Virus record (IMG/VR): IMGVR_UViG_3300042460_000724
Span: 46,306 to 110,305 of that record
Origin: a virus
Strand: one strand, 5' to 3'
Length of the DNA stretch: 64,000 bases
Shown here: in pieces, positions 21,358 through 62,369 of the stretch
How positions within the stretch are numbered: the first letter of the stretch is position 1
How the letters are laid out: each line of letters opens with the position of its first letter
The notes under the pieces: model-generated
The model's database searches: none
Told to the model about the DNA's origin: nothing
The model's input: only the letters and a program-made list of their open reading frames with translations
Made by a program: the position numbers and the translations under genes

Positions 21358-21867
21358 TTAACCACCAAACATAGGCCAAATAATATTAAAAGGATCTGTC
21401 TGCGTAGTAATATCTGCTAATGCTTGCATATATGCATCCATTAATGTTAAATCATCTACAGTGGGTTCACCTAATCTAAGTTGTCTATCATATCGAGTGT
21501 ATCGCCATTCAAAATCTTTCATCTTTGTATCACGTTCACCTCTTATCAAATTCCATTGATCTCTAGTACGTAGTTCTTGTTGTAGCTGTATATCTTCAGG
21601 CGAGGGTTCGTATATCACTGATTTAGGTAGCTCAATAATATCCATTGTTTCATACGCAACACCATCAGTAAAATACTGTCTAGGATTATCTATTTTTTGT
21701 GTTTCTGGATTATATTCAGGGTATGCTTTTACTAATGTATACCAACCAAATGATAAACGTTCTTCTTCTGTAAGTGCATAAAAATTACTGATATTTTTCC
21801 AATTATTTGGAATAAGGTCGTATACACCTTCTATATTACCGTCAACAATATGAGCATAATTAGCCAT
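21358..21867 (-). CDS. Phage tail/fibre assembly chaperone-like protein
   Basis: C-terminal WNLIRGERD...YMQALADIT...IIWP pattern. Start revised to ATG 21867 (TAATG overlap with the upstream gene). Confidence 0.7.
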   Translation of the reverse strand: MANYAHIVDGNIEGVYDLIPNNWKNISNFYALTEEERLSFGWYTLVKAYPEYNPETQKIDNPRQYFTDGVAYETMDIIELPKSVIYEPSPEDIQLQQELRTRDQWNLIRGERDTKMKDFEWRYTRYDRQLRLGEPTVDDLTLMDAYMQALADITTQTDPFNIIWPMFGG

Positions 21868-22259
21868 TATAAATTTTGTCCTGAAACAAATGCCTGCCAA
21901 TTTATACCACCATCAGTAGTAAAAAAGGTGAATACATCTTCTTTGTTATTACTTGATGTTAATGTAGGAGCAGTTCCTCCTGGCCAGTGAAAGCTAGCAG
22001 GCCAAGTAACTGAACGAGCAGTACCATCAGCAGTGAAAACTAGTACAAATGAACTTGCTCTACCTGCTGATTGTATGTTAGAGAATGTGATAGATGTGAT
22101 GTTAGAATTTAAAGCGACATTGAATACAGTAGCGATATTTAAATTTAGTGTTAAAACGCCGGCACTAATAGTAGCAGTCGCACTAACTTCTGCTGAATTG
22201 TTTGGTAAAAATACCTTATTGTCGTCAATTACGGTCGACCCGATTACTTTAATTGCCAT
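21867..22259 (-). CDS. Small beta-rich fibre adaptor protein
   Basis: 130 aa. VTWPASFHWPGGTAPTLT...DVFTFFTTDGG.NW resembles phage fibre C-terminal domains. AAGGAG SD. Confidence 0.65.
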   Translation of the reverse strand: MAIKVIGSTVIDDNKVFLPNNSAEVSATATISAGVLTLNLNIATVFNVALNSNITSITFSNIQSAGRASSFVLVFTADGTARSVTWPASFHWPGGTAPTLTSSNNKEDVFTFFTTDGGINWQAFVSGQNL

Positions 22260-22286
22260 CTTCGCTCCTTTGAACTCGGCTACTAC

Positions 22287-22294
22287 TATTTATC
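22287..22294 (-). promoter_or_regulatory. Late-promoter-like element
   Basis: GATAAATA overlapping the upstream stop codon. Confidence 0.45.
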
Positions 22295-25190
22295 TTTTTT
22301 TGAGAGCGTCTATATCCTCTTGCTGTTTTTTAACAGCCTCGATTAAGAATGCTATAATGGGTATATAGTTAACAGCTTTTTTACCTTGACTATTAGTACT
22401 TACTAACTCTGGTAATATTTTTTCAACCATTTGCGCCATTAAACCATATGATTTTTTCTTACTGTCTGTCCAATTGAAACCCATACCAAACAACTGTGAC
22501 AATATTGACATTGGATCTGTGATTGATTGAGGGTTCTCTTTTAGTGTTGCGTCAGACAATGTGTTTAAATCCTGTACAGTTAATTGTCCTGTACTTGGAA
22601 TAAACTGTAGTTTAGTTGTTGTTATACCAGCAGTTAATAACCCACCAGAAGTACTTGTTGCATATACAGGGTAAAAAGTTGAACCAGAACTTGTATTATC
22701 AGTGATTATTGGAGTGGCTTGGGCCCAAGTTACATTTCCAGAACCATTTGTCTGTAAAAATTGATTAGCGGTCCCGTTAGCAATACGTAAGTTAGCTACT
22801 GCACCCAAGTTAATATTGCTTGAGTTTTGAAACTCAACTGTTGTCACGTTTGCAAAGTTAGCTACATTAGCAGTAAAGCTAATATTAGCCGTTGCATTGC
22901 TTACTGTTAAACCAGTTAGTGTACCAACACTTGTAATGTTTGGTTGACTTGATGCCCCTGATACAATTGTACCATAGAAGTAATTAGCACTAATATAGTT
23001 AGCACCAATAATGTTACCGCCTGCGCCCGCACCAGCAATAATATTACCTGTAATATTAGCATTGCCTGCAACGTTTGCACCAGTGCTTGTAACAATCAAT
23101 ACATTAGCATTACCGCCAACGCCAACTGTTACATTTCCGTTAGCAGCCGGTATGCTTATGTTACTATTGCCATTACTGAATACACCTGTAAAATAATTTG
23201 CACTAATTAAGTTAGCACCTGTAATACTACCACCAGTACCAGATCCTGCACTAAGATTGCTAACTGCTACGTTACCGCTATAGTTTGCTGTATTACCAGT
23301 TAATAATCCCGACACAGTTAAACTTGATAATGTACCAACACTTGTAATATTTGGTTGTGAGGCTGTTGTTAATGTACCAGTAAATGTATTAGCACTAATA
23401 TCATTAGCTCCGGATATATTGCTGCCTGTTAATGTTACATTACTACCAAATGCTACGTTGCCTGTAATATTAGCAGTACCATTAATATTTGCACCCGTGC
23501 TAGTTACAACTACAATGTTTGCGTTACCACCTACACTTGTAGTTACATTTCCACCGGCTGTCGCAATGTCAACAATACTTGTACCGTTACTAATATATGC
23601 GGCGCCGCCACCGCCGCCAGCAGGAACCCAACTTAAGTTACCAGCACCGTCTGTTTGTAATACATAGCCATTAGTACCGCCCGTAATACGTACATTAGCA
23701 ACTGTACCTAACGATACATTAGCACCGCTTAGTGCTACATTACCGGTAGTATTTAATGTACCGGCAACATTAACACCGGTGCCAGTAATTACCATAATTG
23801 TATTGCCAACTGCAGTAAAATTAATATTACCATTTGCTGTAGGTATATTTACAGTACTATTACCATTTGCAATATTACTTCCGCCACCTCCTCCGGATTG
23901 TGCTACCCAACTTAATGTCCCTGAGCCATCTGTTTGTAATACATAACCACTAGTACCACCCGAGATATGCAAATTACTAACTGCGCCCAATGTTACGTTA
24001 GCAGAGGTTGTAAAATCAACTATTCCTGTTGCGTTACTTACTGTTAAACCAGTCAACGAACCAACTGAAGTTATATTTGGTTGTGCCGCTGTTGTCAATG
24101 AACCAGATACTGTAGTAAAATAACCACCGGTAGCACCTATATTACCTGCGTTAGCATTACCCGTAGCATTTAATGTTCCTGCTACATTAGTACCAGTGCC
24201 AGTTACAATCATAATGTTTGCGTTACCGACTGCGCTAAATGTTATATTCCCGTTAGCAGAGGGAATATTTACATTACTATTGCCATTTGACATACTTGCC
24301 GGGGTCACATCAACACCCGTTAAGAAAGCACCATTACCAATGAAGTATGGAGCATTAACATTACCAGTAATATTTGCATAGCCTGCAACGTTAACACCTG
24401 TACCGGTAATTTTCATTATATTAGCATTGCCAACCGCATTGAATGTGATATTCCCGTTAGCGGTTGGAATATTTACATTACTATTGCCATTTGAAATATT
24501 AGCTGGGTTTGTGTCTACACCGGTTAAGAATGCACCATTACCGATGAAGTACGGGGCATTAATGTTACCAGTGACATTTGCATAGCCTGCAACGTTAACA
24601 CCGGTACTCGTTACAACCATAATGTTTGCGGTACCGGCTACACTAGTAGTTACATTTCCACCTGAGGTTGCAATAGTTAAATTACTTGTTCCATTGACCA
24701 CTCTACCGGCAGCATCTATTCCGGTCAACTGACTACCATTACCAATAAAGTAATTACCGGATATATTACCGGCAACATTAATACCGACACCAGTAATAAC
24801 CATTGTTGTGTTACCGGCAGCTGTTAGGTTAATATTTCCATTTGCACTTGGGATATTTACGTTACTATTGCCATTTGAGTGTGGTCCTAATATATTACCA
24901 AATGAACCATTACCTGTTACGGTTACACTATATAATGTACCTAGTGAAGTAATATTTGGTTGTGCATTTGTATATACTGTACCTGAAATTAGAGCATTAC
25001 CTACTTGTCCAGAGATGTTACCGGCTGGTAAACTTGTTAGATTTGCACCTGATCCGCTGAAGAAATTAGCTATTGCTAGATTACCCAAATTAGCGTTTAA
25101 TGAAGATAGGTTACCCGTAGCATTTACGTTATTGAACGTAAAATTTTCTGTTGAATCTATGACGTACGGTTCTATCTGTATTAAAGCCAT
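22290..25190 (-). CDS. Fibre 'stalk' protein with a C-terminal intramolecular chaperone (peptidase S74-like) domain
   Basis: G/N/T-rich AQPNITSVG repeats; C-terminal LSDATLKEN...GLMAQMVEKILPELV...VNY...LIEAVKKQQ. Confidence 0.8.
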   Translation of the reverse strand: MALIQIEPYVIDSTENFTFNNVNATGNLSSLNANLGNLAIANFFSGSGANLTSLPAGNISGQVGNALISGTVYTNAQPNITSLGTLYSVTVTGNGSFGNILGPHSNGNSNVNIPSANGNINLTAAGNTTMVITGVGINVAGNISGNYFIGNGSQLTGIDAAGRVVNGTSNLTIATSGGNVTTSVAGTANIMVVTSTGVNVAGYANVTGNINAPYFIGNGAFLTGVDTNPANISNGNSNVNIPTANGNITFNAVGNANIMKITGTGVNVAGYANITGNVNAPYFIGNGAFLTGVDVTPASMSNGNSNVNIPSANGNITFSAVGNANIMIVTGTGTNVAGTLNATGNANAGNIGATGGYFTTVSGSLTTAAQPNITSVGSLTGLTVSNATGIVDFTTSANVTLGAVSNLHISGGTSGYVLQTDGSGTLSWVAQSGGGGGSNIANGNSTVNIPTANGNINFTAVGNTIMVITGTGVNVAGTLNTTGNVALSGANVSLGTVANVRITGGTNGYVLQTDGAGNLSWVPAGGGGGAAYISNGTSIVDIATAGGNVTTSVGGNANIVVVTSTGANINGTANITGNVAFGSNVTLTGSNISGANDISANTFTGTLTTASQPNITSVGTLSSLTVSGLLTGNTANYSGNVAVSNLSAGSGTGGSITGANLISANYFTGVFSNGNSNISIPAANGNVTVGVGGNANVLIVTSTGANVAGNANITGNIIAGAGAGGNIIGANYISANYFYGTIVSGASSQPNITSVGTLTGLTVSNATANISFTANVANFANVTTVEFQNSSNINLGAVANLRIANGTANQFLQTNGSGNVTWAQATPIITDNTSSGSTFYPVYATSTSGGLLTAGITTTKLQFIPSTGQLTVQDLNTLSDATLKENPQSITDPMSILSQLFGMGFNWTDSKKKSYGLMAQMVEKILPELVSTNSQGKKAVNYIPIIAFLIEAVKKQQEDIDALKKR

Positions 25191-25243: not shown

Positions 25244-28200
25244 TTAATATATCGGGAATGCACTTGTTGGTGGTGTGAAGTTACTTGTATAACGAGCATA
25301 ACCTTTTGTTATTCTTAAATCGTCTATGTAGCCAGTGTAATAAAAATTACCGCCTACCATTTCATACCCAACTACTGCACCATTTTGAATAAAGCTGGTA
25401 CTATTAGTTGTTGATCCATTTAAAATCCCGTTTTGATAGATTGCCAGTGTAGTTCCGGATCGAACAACAGCAATGTGTGTCCAAGTGGTAAGAGATATTG
25501 CGTTAGTTGCTAATAAAAGTTGAGTAGTTTCATTGGTTACTCTTACTTTATTTGCATTACTAATTTGTATATGAAGGGCGTCTCCTGTACCAGTTGTTGA
25601 TGAAATAAACATTGCGCCAAAATTTTGATTTGTTGTAAGGTATAGCCAACCTTCAATTGTAAAATCTCCAGTGCCAAAAGCATATAGTGGATTTGATCGT
25701 AAACTTAAATAATCCCCGGTACCATCAAAATACATACTACTCCCACCGAATTTACTTATTGCTGTACTTAGTTGTGCATTACCAACTGTTTCCATGTTAT
25801 TCATCATTGCGGCATCGTATATACCAGCACTGGTCATATTAGTTAGTAGACTTGTGTTTTGTACTGCGGTTAAGGGTGCAGATGGTGGTACAAAGTTACT
25901 GGTGTAAACTGCTGTACCCCTAACAATTCTTACATCTGACATATAACCTAAGGTAAAACCGCTACTACCGCCTCTTGAACCTATATATACTGGTCTTGTA
26001 GCATCTCCTAATGTTCCGGAGAAAGTTAATGGAGTACCCACTGATACTCCGTCAATGTATAATGAGCAAGTTGTCCCCGATCTAACTGCGGCAACATGGT
26101 ACCATCTATTTGCAACTGGAGTGGGCCCATTAACATATGATGCAGCACTACTCGGATAATATTGAAATGACGGGGCTATAAGAATAGTCCAATCAGGAGC
26201 CGCACTTGATACATAATTTGCAACTAAATCCTGTACACCAGCAACACTTGTAAAATATATCCAAAATTCTATAGTATAATTACCTGTGAATTGAAATGCT
26301 GGATTTGCAGGTACACTCAAAGTATCTCCAGTACCATCAAAGTACCCACTACCGCCTATTGTACTAACCGTATAGCCATTTGTAGTTGCACTAGTAAACC
26401 CGAATGGATTTTGTTGAGTTGGTTGACTATTACCAAATGCAGTGATTGTAAAGTTGTTTGTACTGTTATCTATAAATGTAGGTGATTGACATGTCAATAA
26501 ACTTGTATTGGCAATTGCAGTTAGTGGACTTGTTGGAGGAGTAAATGCACCTGTGTATACTGCGGTACCTTTAACAATACGAATGTTTGACAAATAGCCA
26601 ATGATTGGATATACAGCATCAACTGTAAGACCAATTCGTAATGACCCAGTTGGACTTATGTTTGTTGAATTTGTAGTGCTTAATCCACTTACACCATTTA
26701 CATAGATAGATAAATTTGTTCCAGATCTAACTATAGCAACATGATTCCAAGCATTAATATTTATAGCAATACTGCTGGTTAAATCTGAGGTAATTAAAAT
26801 ATAAGGTTGATTACTAGAGTTAATAAGACATGCCCATGGACTTGCTGTTCCTGATGTTCTAGTATCCAAAACTGTTCTATAACTTCCGGATACTGTTTGA
26901 TAAATCCAATATTCAATTGTAAAATCACCAGTACCAAATTGATATGCCGCGTTTGCAGGAGCAGTTAAATAATCCCCACTACCATCAAAATAACCACTAT
27001 AACTTGTTGGGGTCAATGATGATGGATTGAATGGTGAGAAACGCTGTACCGAAACATCACCGTTCTTTGTGATAGTAAAGTTGTTTATACTAGTATCTAT
27101 TATACGATTACTTTGGCAGGTTAATAAACTTGTATTTGTGATAGGTGTTAGTGGTGTTGTGCTGGGTGTAAATGTAGTTGTATATAGTATTGATTTGGTA
27201 ACTCTAAAGTTACTGATATAACCATTAAATGAGCCATCACCGCCGGCATTGATTGTGCCTATGTCAAAATTTGAACCAGCAGAATATCCACCGGCATATG
27301 TCCCGGAAGCATTTAAAGTTCCGTTAATAAAAACTTTGATATTGCCGCTACTGAATGTGCAAGCAAAATGTTGCCATTGATTTGCTGTAACTGTAAATGT
27401 GGGATTATCACTGCCAGCCACTTTGCCAATTCTATTAGCAGGCCAGTTTCTCATAATGTCCCCTTCATTGGGCCCGCCATCAAATAACCCAATTACTGTG
27501 CTAGATAAAGGATATATCCAACATTCAATGGTAACATCACCGCTAGCAGTTAAAACCCCTGCTCCTGCTTTTCTTATATAATCACTAGCACCATCAAAGT
27601 AGTTACTCCAGTTACCACCATAAGGACTAAATGTACCTTGAGTAGTATTACCCGCTCTTGTTACTAAAAAGTTATTTGTACTGTTATCTAAGAAAACACT
27701 ATTATTTACTGATTGATTGTTTTGTAATACTAATAAACTTGTATTTGCTATTGCTGTTAATGGAGCAGAGGGTGGAGTGAAATCTGTAGTATAAACACCT
27801 GTGCCTATTACAAACCTCATATCTGATAGATATCCAACAATACCGCCTGACCCACTGGAACTAACGCCTATATAAACTGCTGAAGCATTGTATGTTCCTG
27901 TACTTGCCGACGAGTACCCAGAAACACCATTAATAAACATTTTTAATGTTCCTGCGGTACGACTGATAGCAACATGATTCCAGGTATTAACAGTAACTGT
28001 ATTTGTTGTAGCAATATCAACCGGTAAATAAAAATGAACTGTGCCGTTGGCGGCAATATATATCTGCCCAAATATTGCAGTAACACTTGATCTGAAATCA
28101 ATAATCGCTGGCGTATTGGCCAATGTTGTTGGATATACCCAAAAGTCAATAGTAAAAGCACCTGTACCAAATTGTGCTGAATTTATTGGTACATCTAGAT

Positions 28201-29890: not shown

Positions 29891-30216
29891 GTTAATTCAG
29901 ACCCAAATAAACTAAAACTTACAGTTGTTGTATTAGCTCTTACTGTTATTACATCTGTTGTAGCCAATGTAATACCAATAGTCATTGTAATACTATCATT
30001 AGCATTTAAGTTACTATCGTATGAAATATATTGTGAAGCTCCAATTGATGCTCCGGCCGGTCTTACAGCAATACGAAATGTTGCGGCACTCGCTGCCTGA
30101 TTACAAATTACGATTGTACTACATACTGCTGAAGTAGTTGCTGGTACTGTGTACAAATCTGTGTTTGTATTTGCTGCCGGGTTACTTTGCCCTAAAACTT
30201 TATATGTGATTGCCAT
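29887..30216 (-). CDS. Small adaptor-like virion protein
   Basis: 109 aa, MAITYKVLGQ...DLYTVP...FSLFGSELT; ATGA overlap with the LamG gene. Confidence 0.7.
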   Translation of the reverse strand: MAITYKVLGQSNPAANTNTDLYTVPATTSAVCSTIVICNQAASAATFRIAVRPAGASIGASQYISYDSNLNANDSITMTIGITLATTDVITVRANTTTVSFSLFGSELT

Positions 30217-35763: not shown

Positions 35764-35771
35764 TTTATACC

Positions 35772-53703: not shown

Positions 53704-56700
53704 TTAAATTGTTCTAACCTGTGTAGTCCAAACTGTAGCATTTGTACTTGCTGGCGTTGCTTGTAGGTTAACATAATAATTGCTACCCGAGTTGCTCATA
53801 TTAACAGCTAATGTTCCTGTGCTTGCCCCGATACGGACAGTTCCGTAAGTAACATAATCAACATTTGATCCGTCTGTAACTGCTAACACTGTTGCTACAC
53901 TATATTTTGCGTTAGATACAGTATCATGTCCTTTAACTAAGAACTCAAAACCAGTAGCAGTTGATCCAGTTACTTCAAATGATGCAATAGTTTGATTAGC
54001 AGTAATCGCAGTAGTAGTAACCGTATTTGCAGTAACAGTTGTATTACCAATATCTACGGTATTAGCTTCAAATACTGCCGCTGTTAATGTACCGGTAGTT
54101 GAAAGATTACCAACTGAAACATTACCTGTTATATTTGCTGTACCGGTTACATCAAGTTGAGTACCACTAAATGTTAAGTTAGCACTTTGTTGTAAGTTGC
54201 CATTAGTATCAGTGTATATAATACTGTTAGATTGTGTTAAGGTAGTAACAGTTGCAGTATTTGTCGTTAATTTACCACTGAAGTTAGCAACATTACCATT
54301 AATCTCTTGAGATACATTTACGTAATTAGCTGTAGCTAAATTACCTAAATTAGCATTTAATGATGTTAAATTACCACTGAAGTTAGCAACATTGCCATTA
54401 ATCTCTTGGGATACGTTTACGTAATTAGCTGTAGCTAAATTACCGAAATTAGCATTTAATGATGTTAAATTACCACTGAAGTTAGCAACATTGCCATTAA
54501 GTTGTTGTGATACATTTACGTAATTAGCTGTAGCCAAGTTACCTAAATTAGCATTTAATGTTGTTAAATTGCCACTGAAGTTAGCAACATTACCATTAAT
54601 CTCTTGGGATACATTTACATAATTAGCCGTAGCCAGGTTACCTAAATTAGCATTTAATGATGTTAAATTACCACTGAAGTTAGCAACATTGCCATTAAGT
54701 TGTTGTGATACATTTACGTAATTAGCCGTAGCCAAGTTACCTAAATTAACTGCACCGGCTCCAGGGAATAGTGTATTACCGTTATTAGCAAATGTCCAAG
54801 TGTCAGAAATTGAACCACCTGTACCAACTTGTACTGTTACGTTACCACCACGATTTTGGAATATGTCTGTTTGACTTGTACCTAATGTGATACCTGAACC
54901 AGCAAATGTTCCACCTTGAATTTGTGAAGCACCACCTAATGTTATGGCACCACTTGGGGCAAATTGTGTTGCATTGCCAGCTGAGTAGATTGCTACGATA
55001 CCAGAACCAACTCCCATACTAATTGATGTATTAGCCGTAGTATTGTAAATATCTGGAAGTTGAACATTGCCACTAAAGTTTGCTGTATTACCTGATAGTG
55101 CTAAGTTAACTGTTAAGTTATTTGTTATTAAATTACCACTTATATTTGCAGTAGAAGCAACTAAATTACCAGAGAACGTATTTGCAGAAACTACATTAGC
55201 ACCAGTGATGTTACCACCAGAACCAGTTGTACTGATATTACCAAAAGTACCGTTGCCAGTAGCAACAACTTCACCACTAGTATTAATATTACCACCAGTT
55301 ATATTACCGGTTGCAATGATTAGACCTCCGGTACCTAAATTACCAACGTTAGCATTACCAGTTACACCTAGTGTTAGGTTAGCTGTTAATGTGTTTGCAG
55401 TTAAAGTACCTGTTAGTGATAGTGAATTACCGGTTGCAGCACCAATGTTTGGTGTTGTAAGATTTGCGCTATCTTTAACAACGACATTTCCACCTACAAT
55501 AGCAGTTGTGTTATTGTCAGTATTAACACTGAATACAGAACCAGTTAATGTTAAACCTGCACCAGCAGTATATGTACCAGCACCAGAGAACTGTACCCAA
55601 TCAACCGGCGATGTACCAACAGTAGTTACTACATCAATCATTACCCAACCGGTGTTATCGTATAGTGTACCTGCAGTAACGAATGTAAAGTCACCACCTG
55701 CCATTTCAGCCGGAGTATTAAAGTCTGCTGAACGAGTCAATACTGTACTACTTGTACGGTCATATATACCGTTATGTGCAGTATTAGCTTCGTTCTTAAC
55801 AAGAATACGCATTCCATTTGACAATGTAACACCGTCAATAGTTGTGTATGTTCCTGTTGTTGTCAATGTTGCACCAACACCATCAGTACCATTATTATAT
55901 GTAACAGTACCACCTGAAATTGTTGCTAGTGTTGTAGTTGTGGCTGCATTACAGCTATCGTGCGTATGTAAGCCTTGTGCAACGTCATCAACATATTGTT
56001 TTGTTGCCGCATCAGTAGATGCAGTTGGGGTTGCCAAACTTGTAATACGTTTACTTGATACATCAACTGTACCATTTCCAGTTGGTGTTAATACAACTGA
56101 GTTATCACCTGTAGCCGCTGATAATACTAAGTTAGCAAAGTTAGAAGTTAATGAAGTGGAAATCAATGCTGAGGTTGTAATATTACCTGTAACATTTATC
56201 AAGCCACCTGCAAATATATTACCAGAAACTCCAACTCCACCATTAGCAACTAACGCACCTGTACTAGTAGACGTTGTGGCTATTGTTGTATTACTGATTG
56301 TTACTAAGGTAAAGTTATTAGCACGATTAAGGAATGTAAATGCATCTGCTTCACTGGCTATACTATTTGATGCAGCCGATAATAAGATTTTTGCACTATT
56401 ACCTGTTGCTCCTGCAAATAGACTTAGTTGACCAGAAGTATTATTATATCCCCCTCTGATTTCTAATGTACTGTTACTTAAATTTACTATTTCATTTTGA
56501 TATAGACTACCTAATGCTATATTACCTGTTAGATTTAATGTAGAGAATGCATTGATAGCACCAGTAACTGATAATAAGTTACCAACGTTCAATGTGTTTG
56601 CAATATTAGCAATATTAGAACCGGATACAAAAGTAAATCCATTACTTGAGTTAGCATTCCCGCCATCATTAATAACTACACCGGTAGTTGGTCCAGGAAT

Positions 56701-57711
56701 AGTAATATTACCAGAAATGTTACCAGTTATGTTACCATTAATGTTTGCACCGTTGATGTTGCCGGTTGCATTAATGTTACCTGTTATATCAATACCACTT
56801 ATTGAAACTACTACAACGTTAGCTACTGCAACGTTACCATTAGCAGTATTAGCAATGTTAAAAGTTACATTACCGTTTGAATATGTTTGTACAGTTGTAT
56901 TACCATTAGTTAGCTTATCAGCAGAAGTTGCCACAACACCTGTTATGTTTGCACCATTACCACTAATATAGTTAGCACTGATGTTGCCAGTAATATTAGC
57001 ATTACCGGTTATCGACATATTATTAGCACTAATATTGCTATTAGATTCTATGTTTGTAGTAAACTTTACTATACCAGTACCGTTTGGTGTCAACGTGATG
57101 TTTGCATTAGCGGTACTACCTATTGTGCTATCATTAAATGTTAGATTACCAATGCTAGTGCCACTAGGCAAATTTGTTACACCAGTTAATCCTATATAAC
57201 GATAACCTACGATGTATAGTACCTTACCTGCCGTTAACGCTGCCGGTATAGTTTCACCAATGAAGTTTAGTACACCAGACTGATAGTTATAATAATATTG
57301 ACCATTACCACCTGAACCAGCGGCAAAGATTTGCGTACCAGTTGCTGTTGGGTTAGCTACTCCGGGATTATCAATCCAAACTTGAGCAGTATATGTTGCA
57401 CCAAATTCAGAAGGTATCCAATAAGTTAAACTAGTTAACCAAGTTGGGTATATACCACCGATCGGTACAGTAGTTGTATCTGCTGTACATTGTATTGCGC
57501 TTGCACCTGTATAAGCTTGAACAATACCTGCAGTTGCGGCTGCGACACCTGGTATTTGATTAGCTTGTGTCCATAACGTGTCTCCACGTAATAGTAACGG
57601 ACTAGGTATTGATTCATTACTAGGACTCTTATTAGTACTAGTATCGGTTTTAGTTACCCCGAACGCTTGTTTATATAATAAGTCAACGATTTGTGCTTGT
57701 GATACGGCCAT
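53704..57711 (-). CDS. Fibre 'stalk' protein with a distinct N-terminal globular domain
   Basis: 1335 aa with a DAATKQYVD domain, 33-aa tandem repeats and a C-terminal domain ending DYVTYG...WTTQVRTI. Confidence 0.8.
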   Translation of the reverse strand: MAVSQAQIVDLLYKQAFGVTKTDTSTNKSPSNESIPSPLLLRGDTLWTQANQIPGVAAATAGIVQAYTGASAIQCTADTTTVPIGGIYPTWLTSLTYWIPSEFGATYTAQVWIDNPGVANPTATGTQIFAAGSGGNGQYYYNYQSGVLNFIGETIPAALTAGKVLYIVGYRYIGLTGVTNLPSGTSIGNLTFNDSTIGSTANANITLTPNGTGIVKFTTNIESNSNISANNMSITGNANITGNISANYISGNGANITGVVATSADKLTNGNTTVQTYSNGNVTFNIANTANGNVAVANVVVVSISGIDITGNINATGNINGANINGNITGNISGNITIPGPTTGVVINDGGNANSSNGFTFVSGSNIANIANTLNVGNLLSVTGAINAFSTLNLTGNIALGSLYQNEIVNLSNSTLEIRGGYNNTSGQLSLFAGATGNSAKILLSAASNSIASEADAFTFLNRANNFTLVTISNTTIATTSTSTGALVANGGVGVSGNIFAGGLINVTGNITTSALISTSLTSNFANLVLSAATGDNSVVLTPTGNGTVDVSSKRITSLATPTASTDAATKQYVDDVAQGLHTHDSCNAATTTTLATISGGTVTYNNGTDGVGATLTTTGTYTTIDGVTLSNGMRILVKNEANTAHNGIYDRTSSTVLTRSADFNTPAEMAGGDFTFVTAGTLYDNTGWVMIDVVTTVGTSPVDWVQFSGAGTYTAGAGLTLTGSVFSVNTDNNTTAIVGGNVVVKDSANLTTPNIGAATGNSLSLTGTLTANTLTANLTLGVTGNANVGNLGTGGLIIATGNITGGNINTSGEVVATGNGTFGNISTTGSGGNITGANVVSANTFSGNLVASTANISGNLITNNLTVNLALSGNTANFSGNVQLPDIYNTTANTSISMGVGSGIVAIYSAGNATQFAPSGAITLGGASQIQGGTFAGSGITLGTSQTDIFQNRGGNVTVQVGTGGSISDTWTFANNGNTLFPGAGAVNLGNLATANYVNVSQQLNGNVANFSGNLTSLNANLGNLATANYVNVSQEINGNVANFSGNLTTLNANLGNLATANYVNVSQQLNGNVANFSGNLTSLNANFGNLATANYVNVSQEINGNVANFSGNLTSLNANLGNLATANYVNVSQEINGNVANFSGKLTTNTATVTTLTQSNSIIYTDTNGNLQQSANLTFSGTQLDVTGTANITGNVSVGNLSTTGTLTAAVFEANTVDIGNTTVTANTVTTTAITANQTIASFEVTGSTATGFEFLVKGHDTVSNAKYSVATVLAVTDGSNVDYVTYGTVRIGASTGTLAVNMSNSGSNYYVNLQATPASTNATVWTTQVRTI
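54267..54750 (-). repeat. 99-bp (33-aa) tandem repeat, about 5 copies
   Basis: Unit ANLGNLATANYVNVSQ(Q/E)(L/I)NGNVANFSGNLTSLN; aagttagcaac recurs at 54281, 54380, 54479, 54578 and 54677. Confidence 0.9.
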
Positions 57712-57713: not shown

Positions 57714-60700
57714 TTAGTTACTCGCAGTTTGTAATGATAATGCAGTCACCGATTGACCGCTTGTTAATGCTATACGGATATAAATTTCGTTATCTGGTGT
57801 ACTTGAACTACTTACAGTACCAAATGTTGCAGTAACAGATTTATTAGTTTGTGCCGAATTTAATGGTGCAACACCACCTAACGATGCTCCATTGCTTCCA
57901 TTTCCACCTGTTCCTGCACCTGGTTGACCTGCACCTGCATACGCTATGCTCATATCTAACCAACCATTTAATGTAGAAGAAGTATCAATAGCACTACCCG
58001 GTAATGCTACCCATAAACCAGCAATTGTGCCTGACCATTTAATATCAAATTTAGATACAGATGTACGTACAATCTTAATTGTAAAATACTGTGTTCCAGT
58101 ACGTCCTGAACTTAAGTCAGGGCCAACTGGTAAATAACCAGTACTATAGTTTGTTTGATCATGTTTTAATGTGTTTGCAACAACAGTTGAATCATATGTT
58201 TGTAATGTACCTGACTGGCTATTGAAGGCTGCTTCACTGCCAGTGTATGCAGGAGTATTTCCTGATCCTGGGTTGACAATCCTAAATGCCAATCCTGATC
58301 CACTACCAATAGTTGAACCAACAAAAACGTTTGCTTCTTCGATAACAGAAGCAGAACTAGTTGTACCTGTTTTATACAATACATTTGCCGCCAACGTTGA
58401 AGTAAATGCTTGTGTATTAGAGTTATAACTATTATTAGATGCTAGTGAAGGACCTGTACTGCTTGCGCCAAAACCTGATATAATAGTTGATGTAGTTGAT
58501 ATAGAAGCATTACCTGAACTTACATATAAATTCTGTGCTAACGGTGTTGTAACACCGGCTGCCGCATATGTAACACTTGCAGGAGCAGCAAATGCACCAC
58601 CTGCAGTACCTGTAACAAAACTATCACTTGTTGGGTACATATTACCGCTTAACTTATTAACATTAGCAGTCAATGTAAACTGATTGGTGTTATTGTAATG
58701 CGGTACTGTACTTGAATAAGTATAACTTGGTGAGACAGGAGCAGATATAGTTAATGAGCTAAATGCTGGTGTACCCGGTGCACTTGAATCATAGAACCAA
58801 CTAGTAGTATTTGTATTAGTTGTGGCACTATCAGCAATATAAACTTCGTTCCAACCTTCTGTTACAGTACCTGCAACTCTAGATGAGAATACTGACCAAA
58901 AGCCAGCGGCAATATTTGCGTTTGCAACATTGTAGTCATAATTATTAAAAATTACTAAATTACTGTATGTACCGTTTCCATCAAGCGCAGTTGTTAATGT
59001 TCTGCTCCCTGCATTGCTACCATTTAAGAATGCAGTAATAGTACCAGTATCTCCTGGACCTGCTATAGTAATATTACCAGTTGTGTATGAACTTGCTCTA
59101 CGTGCAGATGTGACAGTTGTACCACCTGCTACTGATTTATTAGCACCAGGTGTGTTGTCAGTTTGAACATAATTTGCCATACGGTATGTTGACAAGGTTT
59201 GAACACTAATTGACTGACTTGCAGGGAAATTAGGGGGAGCAGGAGGAACTAGTTTTCCTAATACTGTGTTTAGTTGAGCAATTGCGTTAGATACCGATGA
59301 ATCAGTTGTTAATGTTACTGCATTACTAATCAAGTTACCTTGTGTTGGTGAACCCATTGCAATAGCAGTTGCACCACCGGACGTATTTGCAATTACAACT
59401 ACACCGGTACCGTTTGGATCTAATACTAAATTAGAGTTACTTTCTGTAGTAATGTTACCATCTGCTACAGTTAATATATTTTGTATTACTGTTCCTGTAT
59501 CAGAAACATTCATTATATTTGCAACACCATTTGCGGCAAATATGATAGGACCATTAGCAGTTGGAATAGTTACATTACTTGTACCATTAGCAAGTTCACT
59601 TGATGATGCGGCTGAAACTCCAGTTAACTGACTACCATTACCAATAAAGTAAGAAGCACTAACATTACCGGTTACATTTGCATAGCCCGTAATATTTGCA
59701 CCAAGTTGAGTAACTACCAAAGTAGTATTGCCGTTAGCTACAAGATTAACATTACCATTTGCTGTTGGGATACTTACATTAGAAGTACCATTAGCTACAC
59801 CTGAAGAATCAATTGATGCCCAAGTTAAATTACCAGAACCATTTGTTTGTAAATAGTACCCGTTAGAACCACCGGTAATTGTAACATTACCAACGTTACC
59901 TAAATTACTAGTACCAGTAACTATTAAATTACCTACATTTGCTACATTTGAAATGTTTGCACTACCGGTAACAGTTAATAATTGAGTACCGTCATTGAAC
60001 GCAAAGTTTGCACTAGCACCAAAATTATTGTTACCATCATTAAACTGAATCTGAGTATTAGCACCGGCTGCTTCTTGTAAATCCCAAGGTTGACCATTTG
60101 CATATAATAAATTATTTGTTCTTAGGTTACCAACATTTGCTGTATCAGTTACAAACACATTGCTTGCTACATTTACAAAGTTTGCTGTAGCTAGATTACC
60201 TAAATTAGCATTATTAAACTGAGAGTTACCAATAACAGTTAATAGTTGAGTACTATCATTGTATGTTATATTAGCAGAATTAGTTAATACACCACCAGTA
60301 CCGGCAAATGTTACATATGTATTTGTTAATGCATTAGATTGTAAGTTGGCAGCAATAACATTACCACTAAAATTAGCAGTATTACCTGATAGTTCTAAGT
60401 TAACTGTAACATTTGGAGCAATAACGTTGCCACTGAAATTTGCTGTGTTTCCTGATAGTGCTAAGTTAACTGTCACATTCGGAGCTATTACATTACCACT
60501 AAAATTAGCAGTATTACCCGATAATTCTAAATTAACTGTTACATTCGGAGCTATTACATTACCACTAAAGTTTGCCGCATTACCGGTTAAAGTTAAACCA
60601 ATATTTGCATTGCCGGTTACTTCTAATGAAGATAGATATGTTATATTAGATAGTGATAGACCGCCCGCATTCGCTGAAATAGATTGATCACCAATAATAA

Positions 60701-61370
60701 TTGTACTACCACTTAAATACAAATCTTTCCAACGGTTGGTCGTGTTACCCAAATTATATGTTACATTTGCACTAGGTATTAGATTTCCAGTTACATTACC
60801 GGAAATTTGTAAATTACCAATATTTGCTAACCCTAATGTGTTTAAGTTAGCACCATCAATATTACCATCTGCATTAATATTAAAATTGGCTTCAATGTTC
60901 GCATTAACATTTAATATATTGGCTAAGTTTGTAATACCATCAACATTTAAACTAGTTAAGTTACCAACTGAAGTTATGTTTGATTGTGCATTAGTTGTTA
61001 ATGTACCAGTAAAGAAGTTAGCAATTGCTAGATTACCCAAATTAGCATTATTGGCTAAGACATTACCAACAATAGTCAATAAACTTGTTGCAGGGTCAAA
61101 CGTAAAGTTTGAACTGGCTGCAAAGTTATTACCTTCATTATACTGAATCTGATTATTAGCACCGGCAGCTTCTTGTAAATCCCAAGGTTGACCATTTGCA
61201 TATAATAAATTATTTGTTCGTAAATTACCAACGTTAGCGGTATCTGTAACGAAAAGATTAGCTGATAAATTAGCATTACTTGTGGTAATGTCACCGTTCG
61301 CTAAAATAACGTTTGCGGCATTTTCTCCTACTGAGAATCCACCAACTGAGTTAAATGCTTTAATTGCCAT
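57714..61370 (-). CDS. Fibre/structural protein with a large C-terminal globular region
   Basis: 1218 aa; FNSVGGFSVG N-terminus, stalk repeats, then a non-repetitive region after LGKLVPPAPP. Confidence 0.8.
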   Translation of the reverse strand: MAIKAFNSVGGFSVGENAANVILANGDITTSNANLSANLFVTDTANVGNLRTNNLLYANGQPWDLQEAAGANNQIQYNEGNNFAASSNFTFDPATSLLTIVGNVLANNANLGNLAIANFFTGTLTTNAQSNITSVGNLTSLNVDGITNLANILNVNANIEANFNINADGNIDGANLNTLGLANIGNLQISGNVTGNLIPSANVTYNLGNTTNRWKDLYLSGSTIIIGDQSISANAGGLSLSNITYLSSLEVTGNANIGLTLTGNAANFSGNVIAPNVTVNLELSGNTANFSGNVIAPNVTVNLALSGNTANFSGNVIAPNVTVNLELSGNTANFSGNVIAANLQSNALTNTYVTFAGTGGVLTNSANITYNDSTQLLTVIGNSQFNNANLGNLATANFVNVASNVFVTDTANVGNLRTNNLLYANGQPWDLQEAAGANTQIQFNDGNNNFGASANFAFNDGTQLLTVTGSANISNVANVGNLIVTGTSNLGNVGNVTITGGSNGYYLQTNGSGNLTWASIDSSGVANGTSNVSIPTANGNVNLVANGNTTLVVTQLGANITGYANVTGNVSASYFIGNGSQLTGVSAASSSELANGTSNVTIPTANGPIIFAANGVANIMNVSDTGTVIQNILTVADGNITTESNSNLVLDPNGTGVVVIANTSGGATAIAMGSPTQGNLISNAVTLTTDSSVSNAIAQLNTVLGKLVPPAPPNFPASQSISVQTLSTYRMANYVQTDNTPGANKSVAGGTTVTSARRASSYTTGNITIAGPGDTGTITAFLNGSNAGSRTLTTALDGNGTYSNLVIFNNYDYNVANANIAAGFWSVFSSRVAGTVTEGWNEVYIADSATTNTNTTSWFYDSSAPGTPAFSSLTISAPVSPSYTYSSTVPHYNNTNQFTLTANVNKLSGNMYPTSDSFVTGTAGGAFAAPASVTYAAAGVTTPLAQNLYVSSGNASISTTSTIISGFGASSTGPSLASNNSYNSNTQAFTSTLAANVLYKTGTTSSASVIEEANVFVGSTIGSGSGLAFRIVNPGSGNTPAYTGSEAAFNSQSGTLQTYDSTVVANTLKHDQTNYSTGYLPVGPDLSSGRTGTQYFTIKIVRTSVSKFDIKWSGTIAGLWVALPGSAIDTSSTLNGWLDMSIAYAGAGQPGAGTGGNGSNGASLGGVAPLNSAQTNKSVTATFGTVSSSSTPDNEIYIRIALTSGQSVTALSLQTASN
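60352..60585 (-). repeat. 66-bp (22-aa) tandem repeat, about 3.5 copies
   Basis: Unit GNTANFSGNVIAPNVTVNL(E/A)LS. Confidence 0.85.
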
Positions 61371-61391
61371 AATGTTGTCCTTGTCTTTATG

Positions 61392-61399
61392 TATTTATG
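61392..61399 (-). promoter_or_regulatory. Late-promoter-like element
   Basis: CATAAATA upstream of an AAGGA SD and ATG 61370. Confidence 0.55.
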
Positions 61400-61415
61400 T
61401 TAAATTTGTATATAG

Positions 61416-62369
61416 TTAGTTTGCATATTGTACAATCATCATATTATATTTTATAGGATTACTGTAATCCGGAGTCACTACTAACTGAACTGAATCTGGG
61501 CTTCCCGCCTGATATATTACTGAAAAACTACCCACACCACCATTGATGTATAGTCCTGAATATTCGTTAAATACTACCTCTGTACCCAAAATAGCGGCTG
61601 CTATTTTTGCTGTTTGTCTGGTGTTACTTGTCTCATCGGTTGATATTATAGTGAAATCAATTGCTGATAAATTAGCTAAAGAAGTTGACCATAATACTTG
61701 ATTTGGATCTGCTGTTGCAGTGGTAGCAAAATATACTGATGCGTGATAAAACTCATATATTCCAATACCCATTTGAAAAGTATTTGCTATTAAATTTTCA
61801 TTAATTGTTACATTATTACTACTGATGTTTCCTGCAACATCCATACCAGCATTACTAATTACTAATACATTATCTGTACCGTTAACTCCGGCAGTAATAT
61901 TACCATTAAATGTAGCAATGCTTACATTACTATTACCATTACTAATTGCTGATCCGGTACCAGGAGGTGACCATTGAATTATACCGTTGCCATCAGTGGT
62001 TAGTAAATAACCAGATCCGCCACCAGTAATAGTGATATTGGAGATTGGTCCTAAATTACTTAACCCGTTTACATTAATACTTGGTACTGTAAGTAAATTA
62101 GTTACATCATCAAATGTTAAATTTCCACTACCGTTAAACGTCCCGTTTCCGTTGAATTGTATACTATTATTAGGACCATAGGGATTTCCGCCCGCATTAA
62201 AAGGCATTCCATTGGCATAATAATAATTGGCGGCATATACGTTTGCGGCTGTAACATTGCCAGAGGTAACTAATACATTGGTAATTACATTGCCATTGGC
62301 ATCAATTACTGGTACAGGCGGTATACCTACTGAGTACCCACCCAACGAATTAAATGCTTCTGCTGCCAT
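61416..62369 (-). CDS. Fibre/structural protein, first gene of the array
   Basis: 317 aa; FNSLGGYSVG N-terminus, stalk motifs and a C-terminal beta domain (FNEYSG). Confidence 0.75.
   Translation of the reverse strand: MAAEAFNSLGGYSVGIPPVPVIDANGNVITNVLVTSGNVTAANVYAANYYYANGMPFNAGGNPYGPNNSIQFNGNGTFNGSGNLTFDDVTNLLTVPSINVNGLSNLGPISNITITGGGSGYLLTTDGNGIIQWSPPGTGSAISNGNSNVSIATFNGNITAGVNGTDNVLVISNAGMDVAGNISSNNVTINENLIANTFQMGIGIYEFYHASVYFATTATADPNQVLWSTSLANLSAIDFTIISTDETSNTRQTAKIAAAILGTEVVFNEYSGLYINGGVGSFSVIYQAGSPDSVQLVVTPDYSNPIKYNMMIVQYAN

What the first reader, a model, noticed from the sequence alone, without database searches (positions are those of the whole stretch)
21867..62369. Plug-and-socket code: fibre genes appear to daisy-chain head-to-tail in gene order into a giant branched appendage
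Seen: N-termini fall into classes that track the C-terminal domain of the preceding stalk gene. Class 1 plugs (FNSxxG[FY]SVG or KYFNVKxG) start the 317, 1218, 486, 1116 and 345 aa proteins. The last four each directly follow a gene ending in a similar ~90-aa beta domain (clear in 486 and 1116, more divergent in 317 and 1335). Class 2 plugs MA[LI]xx[IL]xPxx[IL]D start the 1931, 1401 and 966 aa proteins. Exactly three F[AT]GNGVQTxFTL...SAPAN...IEV domains occur, near the ends of the 345, 1931 and 1401 aa proteins, i.e. one in each preceding stalk and none in the last. Those three proteins also carry a second terminal element followed by adaptor or head genes. Inference: a trunk 317>1218>1335>486>1116>345>1931>1401>966 (9115 aa, about three times the residue count of the T4 gp34-gp37 long tail fibre). 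Side branches would carry LamG, Gly-rich and LamG heads, with the RCC1 tree at the tip.
Basis: partly seen in the sequence, partly recalled or inferred. Interest (0 to 1): 0.85.

Follow-up and report, generated by a model that had tools for sequence, protein, structure and literature searches.

The report
Jointed modular fibre genes of a jumbo phage
A 40-kb run of phage fibre genes follows a strict rule, kept in over a hundred related phage contigs, that the end domain of each protein predicts the start of the next one. This fits rods that plug end to end through a socket shaped like the T4 long-tail-fibre socket, though no binding has been shown.

Summary
Observation: confirmed. The ~100-aa C-terminal domains ("Cb") of the 317, 1335, 486 and 1116 aa proteins are homologous. 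Exactly three GNGVQT domains occur.

New evidence:
- Across 147 related IMG/VR loci, the Cb subtype predicts the N-terminus of the next gene. B-type is followed by FNSxxGFSVG (66/70) and A-type by KYFNVKxG (56/65), with no cross cases. The protein's own N-terminus does not matter.
- Further pairs exist: the 1218 C-domain with the 1335 N-domain, XD1 with the LamG protein, and hydrophobic C-terminal tails with small adaptor proteins.
- The AlphaFold model of Cb (pLDDT 95) best matches the C-terminal domain of T4 gp9 (Z 12.5), where the long tail fibre attaches coaxially.
- The 345-aa protein ends in the XD1 domain of CBA120 TSP4. Its GNGVQT domain has the fold of the T7 gp17 N-terminal domain.

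Interpretation: partly supported. Gene-order-collinear joints are plausible (about 0.5). Not supported are a single nine-protein trunk, GNGVQT as the socket for the MA[LI] N-termini, and the RCC1 giant at the tip. Genetic linkage of adjacent modules remains a live rival, and nothing has been shown physically.

The kind is known (T4 long tail fibre, CBA120 and RaK2 branched complexes); this is a new variant.

An earlier scan note on tail/adaptor pairs in this same genome was tested here and holds.

The parts
61416..62369 (-). 317-aa rod and first gene of the series. It has the orphan plug variant N1a* (FNSLGGYSVGIPP, nt 62283-62369) and a C-terminal Cb domain of subtype B (nt 61419-61736).
   Evidence: Orthologues always open the cluster after a gap of about 450 bp and have no Cb gene upstream.
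57714..61370 (-). 1218-aa rod. It has an N1a plug (nt 61284-61370) and a 546-aa C-terminal domain C3 (nt 57717-59354, phrog_8578).
   Evidence: It follows a CbB gene. In the loci listed, C3 is followed by an N3 gene.
53704..57711 (-). 1335-aa rod. It has the N-terminal domain N3 (nt 57172-57711, phrog_9417) and a C-terminal Cb of subtype B (nt 53707-54027).
52225..53685 (-). 486-aa rod. It has an N1a plug (nt 53599-53685) and a C-terminal Cb of subtype A (nt 52228-52524).
   Evidence: AlphaFold model mbc3e6f6fb73b has pLDDT 94.8 and matches the T4 gp9 C-terminal domain at Z 12.5.
48863..52213 (-). 1116-aa rod. It has an N1b plug (nt 52133-52213) and a C-terminal Cb of subtype A (nt 48866-49171).
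47760..48797 (-). 345-aa candidate hub. In order: N1b plug (nt 48717-48797), short shaft, GNGVQT domain (nt 48078-48287), Gly linker, XD1 domain (nt 47763-48059).
   Evidence: phmmer hits CBA120 TSP4-N at E 2.8e-11. VIA gives Z 17.8 to TSP4 residues 77-177, 12.5 to gp9 residues 66-165 and 12.1 to gp10. The GNGVQT domain scores Z 8.5-9.6 to the N-terminal domains of T7 gp17 and other podophage fibres.
42887..47749 (-). 1620-aa protein with six LamG repeats. Its N-terminal motif N5 (MADYYQ...) follows XD1-ending genes in the window and in the relatives seen.
37058..42853 (-). 1931-aa rod. It has an N2 N-terminus (nt 42773-42853), a GNGVQT domain (nt 37139-37327), and a Gly linker plus hydrophobic tail ...AVGYSLIFGG (nt 37061-37138).
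36685..37056 (-). 123-aa all-beta adaptor S1, 1 bp after the 1931-aa gene.
   Evidence: the S1 subtype MAAPNIIS always follows a ...GYSLIFGG tail. S1 and S2 are homologous (hhalign 99.8%).
34861..36683 (-). Two glycine-rich head proteins of 303 and 300 aa (Gly_rich_2).
34490..34843 (-). 117-aa protein T117 (phrog_7759). It always sits just upstream of the MAITKLQPFNLD type of N2 gene.
30226..34431 (-). 1401-aa rod. It has an N2 N-terminus, a GNGVQT domain (nt 30310-30498), and a Gly linker plus tail ...DLLSPFLLMGA (nt 30229-30309).
29887..30216 (-). 109-aa adaptor S2. Its stop overlaps the start of the LamG gene by 4 nt.
   Evidence: S2 of the MAITYKVLGQ type always follows a ...PFLLMGA tail and precedes an MSITSV LamG gene.
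25244..29890 (-). 1548-aa protein with six LamG repeats (N6 type).
22290..25190 (-). 966-aa rod with an N2 N-terminus and a C-terminal Peptidase_S74 intramolecular chaperone domain (nt 22293-22598).
   Evidence: Pfam PF13884 at E 6.3e-9, 36.4 bits against a cut-off of 22.
21358..22259 (-). Two genes. The 130-aa protein has a tail-fibre-tip-like domain. The second is a tail-fibre assembly chaperone whose likely start is MANYAHIVDG at nt 21867.
   Evidence: phrog_9017 and phrog_7760 for the 130-aa protein. PF16778 Phage_tail_APC and phrog_4912 for the chaperone.
8200..21354 (-). 4384-aa RCC1-repeat protein.
   Evidence: None of the N-terminal profiles hit it.

Best explanation
The window is part of a metagenomic phage contig. 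Its relatives are jumbo phages of 220-360 kb with a T4-like major capsid protein. The cluster encodes a fibre system assembled from trimeric rods in the order of the genes.

Proposed mechanism (all binding steps are inferred, none shown):
- Four rods (317, 1335, 486, 1116 aa) end in a ~100-aa jellyroll domain with the fold of the C-terminal domain of T4 gp9, the long-tail-fibre socket.
- The first 25-30 residues of the protein encoded immediately downstream act as the plug.
- At least two orthogonal classes exist: Cb subtype B with FNSxxGFSVG, and Cb subtype A with KYFNVKxG. A third pair links the 1218 C-domain to the 1335 N-domain.
- The series ends in the 345-aa hub, which has a T7 gp17-N-like GNGVQT domain, a Gly linker and a gp9/gp10/TSP4-type XD1 domain.
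- From the hub the LamG protein and the three long MA[LI] fibres depart.
- Two of those fibres end in GNGVQT, a Gly linker and a hydrophobic tail peptide. The tail recruits a matched small beta adaptor (123 or 109 aa) carrying glycine-rich or LamG heads.
- The third fibre (966 aa) ends in a self-cleaving S74 chaperone and is a free tip.

Shown here: the modules, their homologies and folds, and the adjacency rules.

Inferred: every binding step, the site on the virion, and the overall topology (one trunk or several shorter fibres).
For: 1. Junction grammar in 136 non-identical junctions from 147 related loci. CbB is followed by N1a in 66/70 and CbA by N1b in 56/65, with no cross cases. N1b is preceded by CbA in 55/55. 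The rule is independent of the protein's own N-type.
2. The rules survive rearrangements:
   - chains of 2 to 6 links;
   - L081, where an N1a protein carries the XD1 end and the CbA/N1b pair is absent altogether;
   - L086, where a homing endonuclease lies between a CbB gene and an N1a gene;
   - L049/L051/L052, where one protein runs from N1a* to C3 while the window has two (317 + 1218).
3. The Cb model (pLDDT 94.8) matches T4 gp9 residues 163-284 at Z 12.5, rmsd 2.9 A, 102 residues aligned. The review PMC3004832 states that long tail fibres attach coaxially to that domain and calls gp9 the 'socket protein'.
4. Cb is always C-terminal and N1 always N-terminal in the loci.
5. Termini are more conserved than shafts: 64/44/71% for N-terminus, shaft and Cb in the 1116 family. 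Synonymous differences outnumber non-synonymous ones in the modules, for example 33 versus 9.
6. The 345-aa protein has XD1 (Z 17.8 to CBA120 TSP4) and a gp17-N-like domain. Its N-terminal 20 residues have low pLDDT, as expected for a peptide that folds on binding.
7. Tail peptide type and adaptor subtype covary perfectly across parents with N2, N1a, N1b or other N-termini.
8. Three relatives encode, elsewhere in the genome, an orphan 258-265-aa mini-fibre with a B-like Cb. It is a candidate partner for the orphan plug N1a* of the first gene.
9. T4 genes 34-37 give a precedent for gene order matching proximal-to-distal order.
Against: - No physical interaction was tested.
- Adjacent modules lie only 1-65 bp apart, so co-inheritance is expected from linkage alone. 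Unequal crossing-over between paralogous junctions would change chain length and still keep the grammar.
- The gp9-C fold also forms the C-terminal, distal domain of Acinetobacter phage tailspikes (Z 10.2 and 8.0), which are not known to be sockets.
- In the wider database the fold occurs as tandem arrays of 6-10 copies.
- Synechococcus phage S-SM2 has a Cb-ended protein with no N1-type neighbour.
- N1 profiles do not match the N-terminus of T4 gp34.
- The plug and socket classes are generic: two CbB, three N1a, two CbA and two N1b in the window. The code as seen does not fix a single order.
- In several relatives the cluster lies next to the major capsid gene, so attachment to the baseplate is assumed rather than shown.
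Confidence: 0.5

Rival explanations
1. Independent fibres. Each rod attaches to the virion or a hub on its own through its N-terminus, with N1a, N1b and N2 as anchors for a few shared sites. Cb is a conserved distal knob. The end-to-start pairs are only linkage blocks left between recombination hot spots in the repetitive shafts.
For: - The modules are 1-65 bp apart.
- The shafts are full of near-identical repeats such as NAQPNITS and GNSNVNIP, which favour recombination inside genes.
- The gp9-C fold is also the distal C-terminal domain of tailspikes.
- S-SM2 has a Cb without a plug neighbour.
- The blocks [S1-heads-T117-N2a] and [S2-LamG-N2b] are permuted as units between the window and a 137-kb relative. 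Cassette exchange predicts exactly this.
Against: - Five or more different fibres would compete for the same anchor site.
- Cb is conserved rather than hypervariable as receptor-binding tips usually are.
- There are no cross cases in about 120 junctions, including deep relatives with 20-40% Cb identity.
- The CbA/N1b pair is lost together in L081.
- A 118-aa protein consists of an N1b plug and a CbA domain only (P0145). That makes little sense as a fibre but makes sense as a link.
Confidence: 0.3
2. A single trunk runs 317>1218>1335>486>1116>345>1931>1401>966. GNGVQT domains act as sockets for the MA[LI] N-termini, LamG and Gly-rich heads form side branches, and the RCC1 giant sits at the tip.
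For: - In the window and in two relatives (the 137-kb and 348-kb contigs), the number of GNGVQT-bearing proteins equals the number of MA[LI] proteins, and the last MA[LI] protein lacks GNGVQT.
- The GNGVQT fold is that of known attachment domains (T7 gp17 N-terminus, Kp7 tail adaptor).
Against: - In L009, L091 and L093, GNGVQT is tandem or internal (five copies) with only one MA[LI] protein.
- MA[LI] genes never directly follow a GNGVQT gene, and their subtypes track T117 or LamG neighbours.
- In its known contexts the gp17-like domain is the part that attaches, not the part that receives.
- C3 of the 1218-aa protein is a 550-aa globular domain that may be a head.
- The 966-aa fibre ends in an S74 chaperone, and the RCC1 protein has no junction module.
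Confidence: 0.1
3. The appendage sits on the head or neck rather than the baseplate (head fibres or whiskers). This concerns location only and is compatible with either assembly model.
For: - In several relatives the first fibre gene lies directly downstream of the scaffold and T4-like major capsid genes (phrog_138, E 4e-98).
- The Cb-bearing protein of S-SM2 lies between gp16 and gp17, among the neck and terminase genes.
- One weak PHROG hit to 'head decoration' falls in the 1335-aa protein.
Against: - The XD1, gp9-C-like and gp17-N-like domains, the tail-fibre assembly chaperone PF16778 and many PHROG 'tail' hits all come from tail or baseplate contexts.
- Gene neighbourhood in jumbo phages is a weak guide to location on the virion.
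Confidence: 0.15

Closest known systems
T4 long tail fibre (gp9 socket, then gp34-gp35-gp36-gp37)
   Same: - Several proteins join end to end, and adjacent genes follow proximal-to-distal order.
- The socket fold matches: Cb versus the gp9 C-terminal domain, Z 12.5.
- An XD1-like domain is also present in gp34 residues 100-185.
- A fibre assembly chaperone is encoded at the end of the cluster.
   Different: - Here the socket domain sits at the C-terminus of the rods themselves and recurs four times in two subtypes.
- No gp35-like monomeric knee was found.
- N1 plugs show no detectable similarity to the gp34, gp36 or gp37 N-termini.
- Up to nine rods are involved rather than four proteins.
CBA120 TSP1-4 and G7C gp66/gp63.1 branched tailspike complexes (T4 gp10-like XD domains)
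   Same: - The XD1 domain of the 345-aa protein shares 28-30% identity with TSP4 residues 77-177 (Z 17.8, rmsd 1.2 A).
- It is preceded by a Gly linker, as in TSP4 (PMC8825819).
- Both follow the idea of a hub that carries several receptor-binding proteins.
   Different: - In TSP4 the XD domains are N-terminal, next to a baseplate anchor. XD2 and XD3 do the binding, while XD1 is described as a spacer (PMC8825819).
- Here XD1 is the very C-terminus of a short fibre, and XD2/XD3 were not identified.
- The partners are long fibres and LamG proteins, not enzymatic tailspikes.
RaK2 / phiK64-1 (Alcyoneusvirus) long tail fibres built from nine tail-fibre proteins
   Same: A jumbo myophage with a very elaborate, branched, multi-protein appendage encoded by a gene cluster (PMC10253068).
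   Different: - RaK2 branches from several N-terminal XD domains on one organiser protein (gp528), and most branches are depolymerases.
- Here the proposed joints are C-terminal socket to N-terminal plug, in series along long shafts.
T7 gp17 N-terminal domain and podophage tail adaptors (Kp7 7Y22 chain e)
   Same: The GNGVQT domain matches the Kp7 tail adaptor by profile (E 1.2e-15). It matches the N-terminal ~75 residues of T7 gp17 and other podophage fibres by fold (Z 8.1-9.6).
   Different: - In those phages the domain is N-terminal and docks the fibre onto the tail.
- Here it lies near the C-terminus of rods, sometimes in tandem, and its partner is unknown.
T2-type gp37/gp38 fibre tip with a separate adhesin
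   Same: A fibre C-terminus recruits a small protein encoded just downstream. Here the tail peptide is followed by the S1 or S2 adaptor.
   Different: - No sequence relation was found. The comparison to gp38 rests on my own knowledge and was not tested here.
- S1 and S2 are followed by further head proteins.

Membership tests
T4 gp9 C-terminal (long-tail-fibre socket) domain | Eight-stranded beta jellyroll fold of gp9 residues ~175-288 | tested here: met
   The model of the 486-aa protein's Cb (pLDDT 94.8) gives VIA Z 12.5, rmsd 2.9 A and 102 aligned residues to 1qex_A 163-284. Foldseek E is 5e-5.
T4 gp9 C-terminal (long-tail-fibre socket) domain | Lies at the C-terminal end of the chain, leaving the distal threefold face free | tested here: met
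   All ~240 Cb hits in the loci end within 25 residues of the C-terminus, and none is internal. In the wider database, tandem internal arrays do exist.
T4 gp9 C-terminal (long-tail-fibre socket) domain | Binds the N-terminus of a coaxial trimeric fibre | not testable with these tools
   Only monomer prediction was available. The adjacency rules are indirect.
T4 gp9 C-terminal (long-tail-fibre socket) domain | Sequence-level family membership | tested here: inconclusive
   No Pfam or PDB sequence match for Cb. Pfam gave nothing, and the best PDB profile hit had E 0.47 to an unrelated protein.
gp10/TSP4-type XD branching adaptor | XD1 domain | tested here: met
   phmmer E 2.8e-11 to 7rej residues 75-176. 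VIA Z 17.8, rmsd 1.2 A, 28% identity. The XD profile also hits T4 gp34 residues 100-185.
gp10/TSP4-type XD branching adaptor | XD2/XD3 jellyroll domains that bind trimeric partners | tested here: inconclusive
   There is only a weak alignment of the GNGVQT region to TSP4 residues 206-269 (i-E 4.6). The best fold matches of that region are gp17-N-like domains, not XD2/XD3.
gp10/TSP4-type XD branching adaptor | XD domains at the N-terminus, after a baseplate anchor and before a tailspike body | tested here: not met
   In the 345-aa protein, XD1 is the C-terminal domain (residues 247-345) and there is no tailspike body.
T4-type long tail fibre proteins gp34-gp37 | Homology of rods or joints to gp34, gp35, gp36 or gp37 | tested here: not met
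   The N1a, N1b, N2, Cb and GNG profiles give no significant hit on T4 gp34-37. Only the XD profile hits gp34.
Peptidase_S74 intramolecular-chaperone fibres | C-terminal PF13884 domain above the gathering score | tested here: met
   966-aa protein residues 879-930, 36.4 bits against a cut-off of 22, E 6.3e-9. Cleavage residues were not examined.
T7 gp17 N-terminal tail-attachment domain | Fold of gp17 residues ~1-80 | tested here: inconclusive
   VIA Z 8.5 (7boz_b 5-77), 8.8 (8dsp_C) and 9.1 (7ey9_a), in the range where a common small beta sandwich cannot be excluded. No Pfam PF03906 hit, only a weak DUF4183 hit.
T7 gp17 N-terminal tail-attachment domain | N-terminal position on the fibre | tested here: not met
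   The GNGVQT domains lie 26-109 residues from the C-terminus.

The most novel reading that the evidence does not exclude
Jumbo phages of this group use a small set of orthogonal, reusable joints to concatenate and branch trimeric rods of any length into an appendage several times longer than the T4 long tail fibre.

The joints proposed are:
- gp9-like C-terminal sockets of at least two specificities with matching 25-residue N-terminal plugs;
- a third domain pair (C3/N3);
- XD1 with the LamG N-terminus;
- C-terminal tail peptides with matched small adaptors.

Gene order would spell out the assembly order. An orphan mini-fibre encoded elsewhere would provide the base socket. The same socket domain (7584 clusters at 50% identity, no Pfam family) would then be a general, undescribed fibre connector in phages.
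Probability: 0.2. Interest if true: 0.85.

Novelty: new variant of a known kind. Interest (0 to 1): 0.68.

Why it matters
If the joints are real, they explain how phages with 200-360-kb genomes build very large receptor-binding appendages from interchangeable rods and heads. They would also explain how recombination can swap whole segments without breaking assembly. Such joints would offer a defined set of natural, orthogonal connectors for rebuilding phage fibres in laboratory host-range work. They would also give a function to a very common unannotated domain (7584 protein clusters). The hypothesis is directly testable with short protein fragments, without the uncultured phage.

Tried and rejected
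- Megablast of 6 kb against 50,697 phage records found no match. tblastn found only domain-level hits. No cultured close relative was found, so no virion images can be consulted.
- N1 plug versus the T4 gp34 N-terminus: the two look alike by eye (MAEIKREF..GLDAGG against MAIKAFNSVGGFSVG), but the profiles give no hit. I dropped this as evidence.
- S1/S2 adaptors as free-standing Cb sockets: hhalign probability is below 1%. Rejected.
- The count rule of one GNGVQT per MA[LI] protein holds in three genomes but fails in L009, L091 and L093.
- Finer specificity within CbA/N1b (C-terminal ...YVxD followed by KQG...YIxT followed by KNG) is a tendency only, with mixed cases. No claim is made.
- Conserved total chain length: the variance of the sum is about half the sum of the variances (n = 8 related chains; CV 15% over 12 chains). 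This is too weak and non-independent to count.
- The T4 late promoter TATAAATA is not enriched (9 found, 15 expected) and is absent between the fibre genes. Only a GATAAATA lies before the 317-aa gene.
- The candidate gp9 homologue upstream of the first fibre gene in relatives turned out to be the major capsid protein.
- ESM Atlas searches for C3 and N3 returned only unnamed viral clusters.
- The moraphage paper (PMC12619734) was checked for a link to this lineage, and none could be established.
- A tree-based independence test was not run. Cb subtype and tree would come from the same columns, and linkage would confound the result.
Full report
**What is there**

The window is the last 64 kb of a 110-kb viral contig. 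Nineteen minus-strand genes lie between 62369 and 8200, with gaps of -34 to 65 bp.

In order of transcription they are:
- 317, 1218, 1335, 486, 1116 and 345 aa proteins;
- 1620 aa (six LamG repeats);
- 1931 and 123 aa;
- 303 and 300 aa (Gly_rich_2);
- 117, 1401 and 109 aa;
- 1548 aa (six LamG repeats);
- 966 aa (C-terminal Peptidase_S74);
- 130 aa;
- 180 aa (tail-fibre assembly chaperone, PF16778);
- 4384 aa (RCC1 repeats).

No cultured close relative exists in the phage collection. IMG/VR holds many related contigs, including complete ones of 348 and 359 kb. In several of them the cluster starts right after a T4-like major capsid gene.

**Checking the observation**

Profiles built on ORFs of the 147 related loci show each N-terminal class to be a real, strictly N-terminal family:
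- N1a (FNSxxGFSVG) in 154 proteins;
- N1b (KYFNVKxG) in 109 proteins;
- N2 (MA[LI]...) in 38 proteins.

N1a and N1b are related to each other (hhalign 94%), while N2 is unrelated to both.

The C-terminal domain, which I call Cb, is homologous in the 317, 1335, 486 and 1116 aa proteins (hhalign 99.9%). It falls into subtype A (486, 1116) and subtype B (317, 1335). Exactly three GNGVQT domains occur.

**The adjacency grammar**

In the window, B-type Cb is followed by an N1a gene and A-type Cb by an N1b gene, four times out of four.

Across the loci (136 non-identical junctions):
- CbB is followed by N1a in 66/70, and CbA by N1b in 56/65.
- There are no cross cases, whatever the protein's own N-terminus.
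- The exceptions are divergent N-termini or more distant phages, which have a third Cb type followed by an MMAVTRIK N-terminus.
- N1b is preceded by CbA in 55/55.
- The only N1a genes without an upstream Cb are the first-gene variant N1a* (..GGYSVGIPP), that is, the orthologues of the 317-aa protein.

Further pairs were found:
- C3 (the 546-aa C-domain of 1218) is followed by N3 (the N-domain of 1335).
- XD1 is followed by the MADYYQ LamG protein.
- A GNGVQT-plus-tail end is followed by S1 or S2.
- S2 is followed by the MSITSV LamG protein.
- T117 is followed by the MAITKLQPFNLD type of N2 gene.

Chain length varies from two to six links, and individual rods from about 115 to 2867 aa, yet the rules hold. 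L081 lacks the CbA/N1b pair entirely. L086 has a homing endonuclease inserted inside a junction. L049, L051 and L052 have one protein where the window has 317 + 1218.

The tail peptide after GNGVQT covaries perfectly with the subtype of the small protein downstream, on parents with N2, N1a, N1b or other N-termini:
- ..GYSLIFGG with MAAPNIIS;
- ..IAMAIVFGF with MANPNIV;
- ..PFLLMGA with MAITYKVLGQ;
- ..VYSLVL with MAIHN.

**Structure**

The Cb domain folds confidently (pLDDT 94.8, eight strands). Its best solved match is the C-terminal domain of T4 gp9 (Z 12.5, rmsd 2.9 A, residues 163-284). The T4 tail review calls gp9 the 'socket protein' and states that long tail fibres attach coaxially to its C-terminal domain, through the N-terminus of gp34 (PMC3004832).

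The next matches are a gp9-like protein of Klebsiella phage KP1 (Z 10.5) and the C-terminal domains of Acinetobacter tailspikes (Z 10.2 and 8.0). The latter are not known to be sockets.

For the 345-aa protein:
- Residues 247-345 are an XD1 domain. The matches are CBA120 TSP4-N residues 77-177 (Z 17.8, 28% identity, phmmer E 3e-11), the gp9 middle domain (Z 12.5) and gp10 (Z 12.1).
- Residues 171-240, the GNGVQT domain, match the N-terminal domains of T7 gp17 and other podophage fibres (Z 8.1-9.6).
- By profile, the GNGVQT domain also matches the Kp7 tail adaptor (E 1.2e-15).

In TSP4, XD2 and XD3 bind the partner tailspikes, and XD1 is described as a spacer (PMC8825819).

**Are the modules functional protein parts?**

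Termini are more conserved than shafts. In the 1116 family the identities are 64% (N-terminus), 44% (shaft) and 71% (Cb). In the 486 family they are 56%, 31% and 50%. Synonymous codon differences outnumber non-synonymous ones within the modules. This pattern suits structural joints better than receptor-binding tips, which are usually the most variable part of a fibre.

**Wider distribution**

- Cb has no Pfam family but matches 7584 clusters in the 1.84-billion-protein library.
- Single-copy hits are strictly C-terminal. The top hits are tandem arrays of 6-10 copies.
- One 118-aa protein is nothing but an N1b plug and a CbA domain.
- Three relatives encode, elsewhere in the genome, a conserved 258-265-aa mini-fibre with a different N-terminus and a B-like Cb. 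It could be the base socket for the orphan plug N1a*. This is speculation.

**Interpretation**

The best reading is a fibre system jointed in gene order, with gp9-like sockets and N-terminal plugs. It would end in a hub (345 aa), followed by fibres whose tips recruit adaptors and heads. I give it about 0.5.

The main rival, at about 0.3, is that the pairs reflect only linkage of neighbouring modules between recombination-prone shafts. The permutation of whole blocks between the window and the 137-kb relative fits both readings.

- GNGVQT is not 1:1 with MA[LI] N-termini in relatives.
- MA[LI] subtypes follow the preceding LamG or T117 gene.
- The plug and socket classes are generic, so order is not fixed by the code seen.
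- C3 may be a head.
- The 966-aa fibre ends in an S74 chaperone.
- The RCC1 protein has no junction module.
- The site on the virion is unknown.

**Comparison with known systems**

The principle is known from the T4 long tail fibre (serial, collinear genes) and from CBA120, G7C and RaK2 (branching through gp10-like domains; PMC8825819, PMC10253068).

What is new:
- a gp9-C-like socket placed at the C-termini of the rods themselves;
- its recurrence in orthogonal subtypes;
- C-terminal rather than N-terminal docking modules;
- the number of joint classes.

I rate this a new variant of a known kind. It is interesting because it is directly testable with protein fragments.

Noticed in passing
window 62354-62827 (+ strand), between the homing endonuclease and the 317-aa gene: A small Cys-rich ORF (MLTQQKPRPLCENCNVTLAK...) runs opposite to the fibre genes. 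The same 121-122-aa ORF sits before the first fibre gene in L005, L018 and L025. A hairpin plus T-run lies at about 62830-62850, and a GATAAATA lies about 25 nt before the 317-aa start codon.
   Followed up: partly
window 62891-63700 (-); L086: A homing endonuclease (phrog_655, E 2e-40) sits just upstream of the cluster, where relatives have the capsid gene. In L086 a similar endonuclease is inserted between a CbB gene and its N1a neighbour.
   Followed up: partly
L025:1398-2594 (+), also L009, L014, L018, L029: In several relatives the first fibre gene lies directly after the scaffold and T4-like major capsid genes (phrog_138, E 4e-98). The position of the appendage on the virion is therefore open.
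   Followed up: partly
L153:2549-3325 (+), L154:2677-3474 (-), L155:2352-3134 (+): A conserved orphan 258-265-aa mini-fibre carries the N-terminal motif DIGDLPNDGTGDPLRxAFEKINxNF and a B-like Cb domain. It is encoded far from the fibre cluster. None was found in the complete 348-kb relative at E <= 1e-3.
   Followed up: partly
P0001-P0039, P0145: The Cb domain family is very large (7584 clusters at 50% identity) and has no Pfam model. Some proteins carry 6-10 tandem copies. P0145 (118 aa) is only a plug plus a socket. P0039 is a plug plus two Cb domains.
   Followed up: partly
window 34490-34843 and relatives: The blocks [S1 - Gly-rich heads - T117 - N2a start] and [S2 - LamG - N2b start] occur in opposite order in the window and in the 137-kb relative. 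The recombination break points therefore lie inside the long N2 shafts.
   Followed up: yes
window 60636-60782 (1218-aa protein, residues 197-245): The N-terminal motif of the 1620-aa LamG protein (..LGNxTNxxxDxYxxxxLxxG) recurs inside the 1218-aa protein and in 130 other proteins of the loci. It appears to be a common fibre element, not a plug specific to XD1.
   Followed up: no
L152 (Synechococcus phage S-SM2, SSM2_107, record 89712-91376): An annotated 'tail fiber protein' with a coiled-coil-like N-terminus and a C-terminal Cb domain lies between gp16 and gp17. The genes after it are lysine-rich and show no N1 plug.
   Followed up: partly
G000 contig 40297-40897 (L151:4298-4898, -): A PAAR-motif protein (phrog_281) and a phrog_527 protein lie next to two unannotated 419-aa and 500-aa proteins, downstream of the ribonucleotide reductase genes. 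They may be tail-tip components.
   Followed up: no
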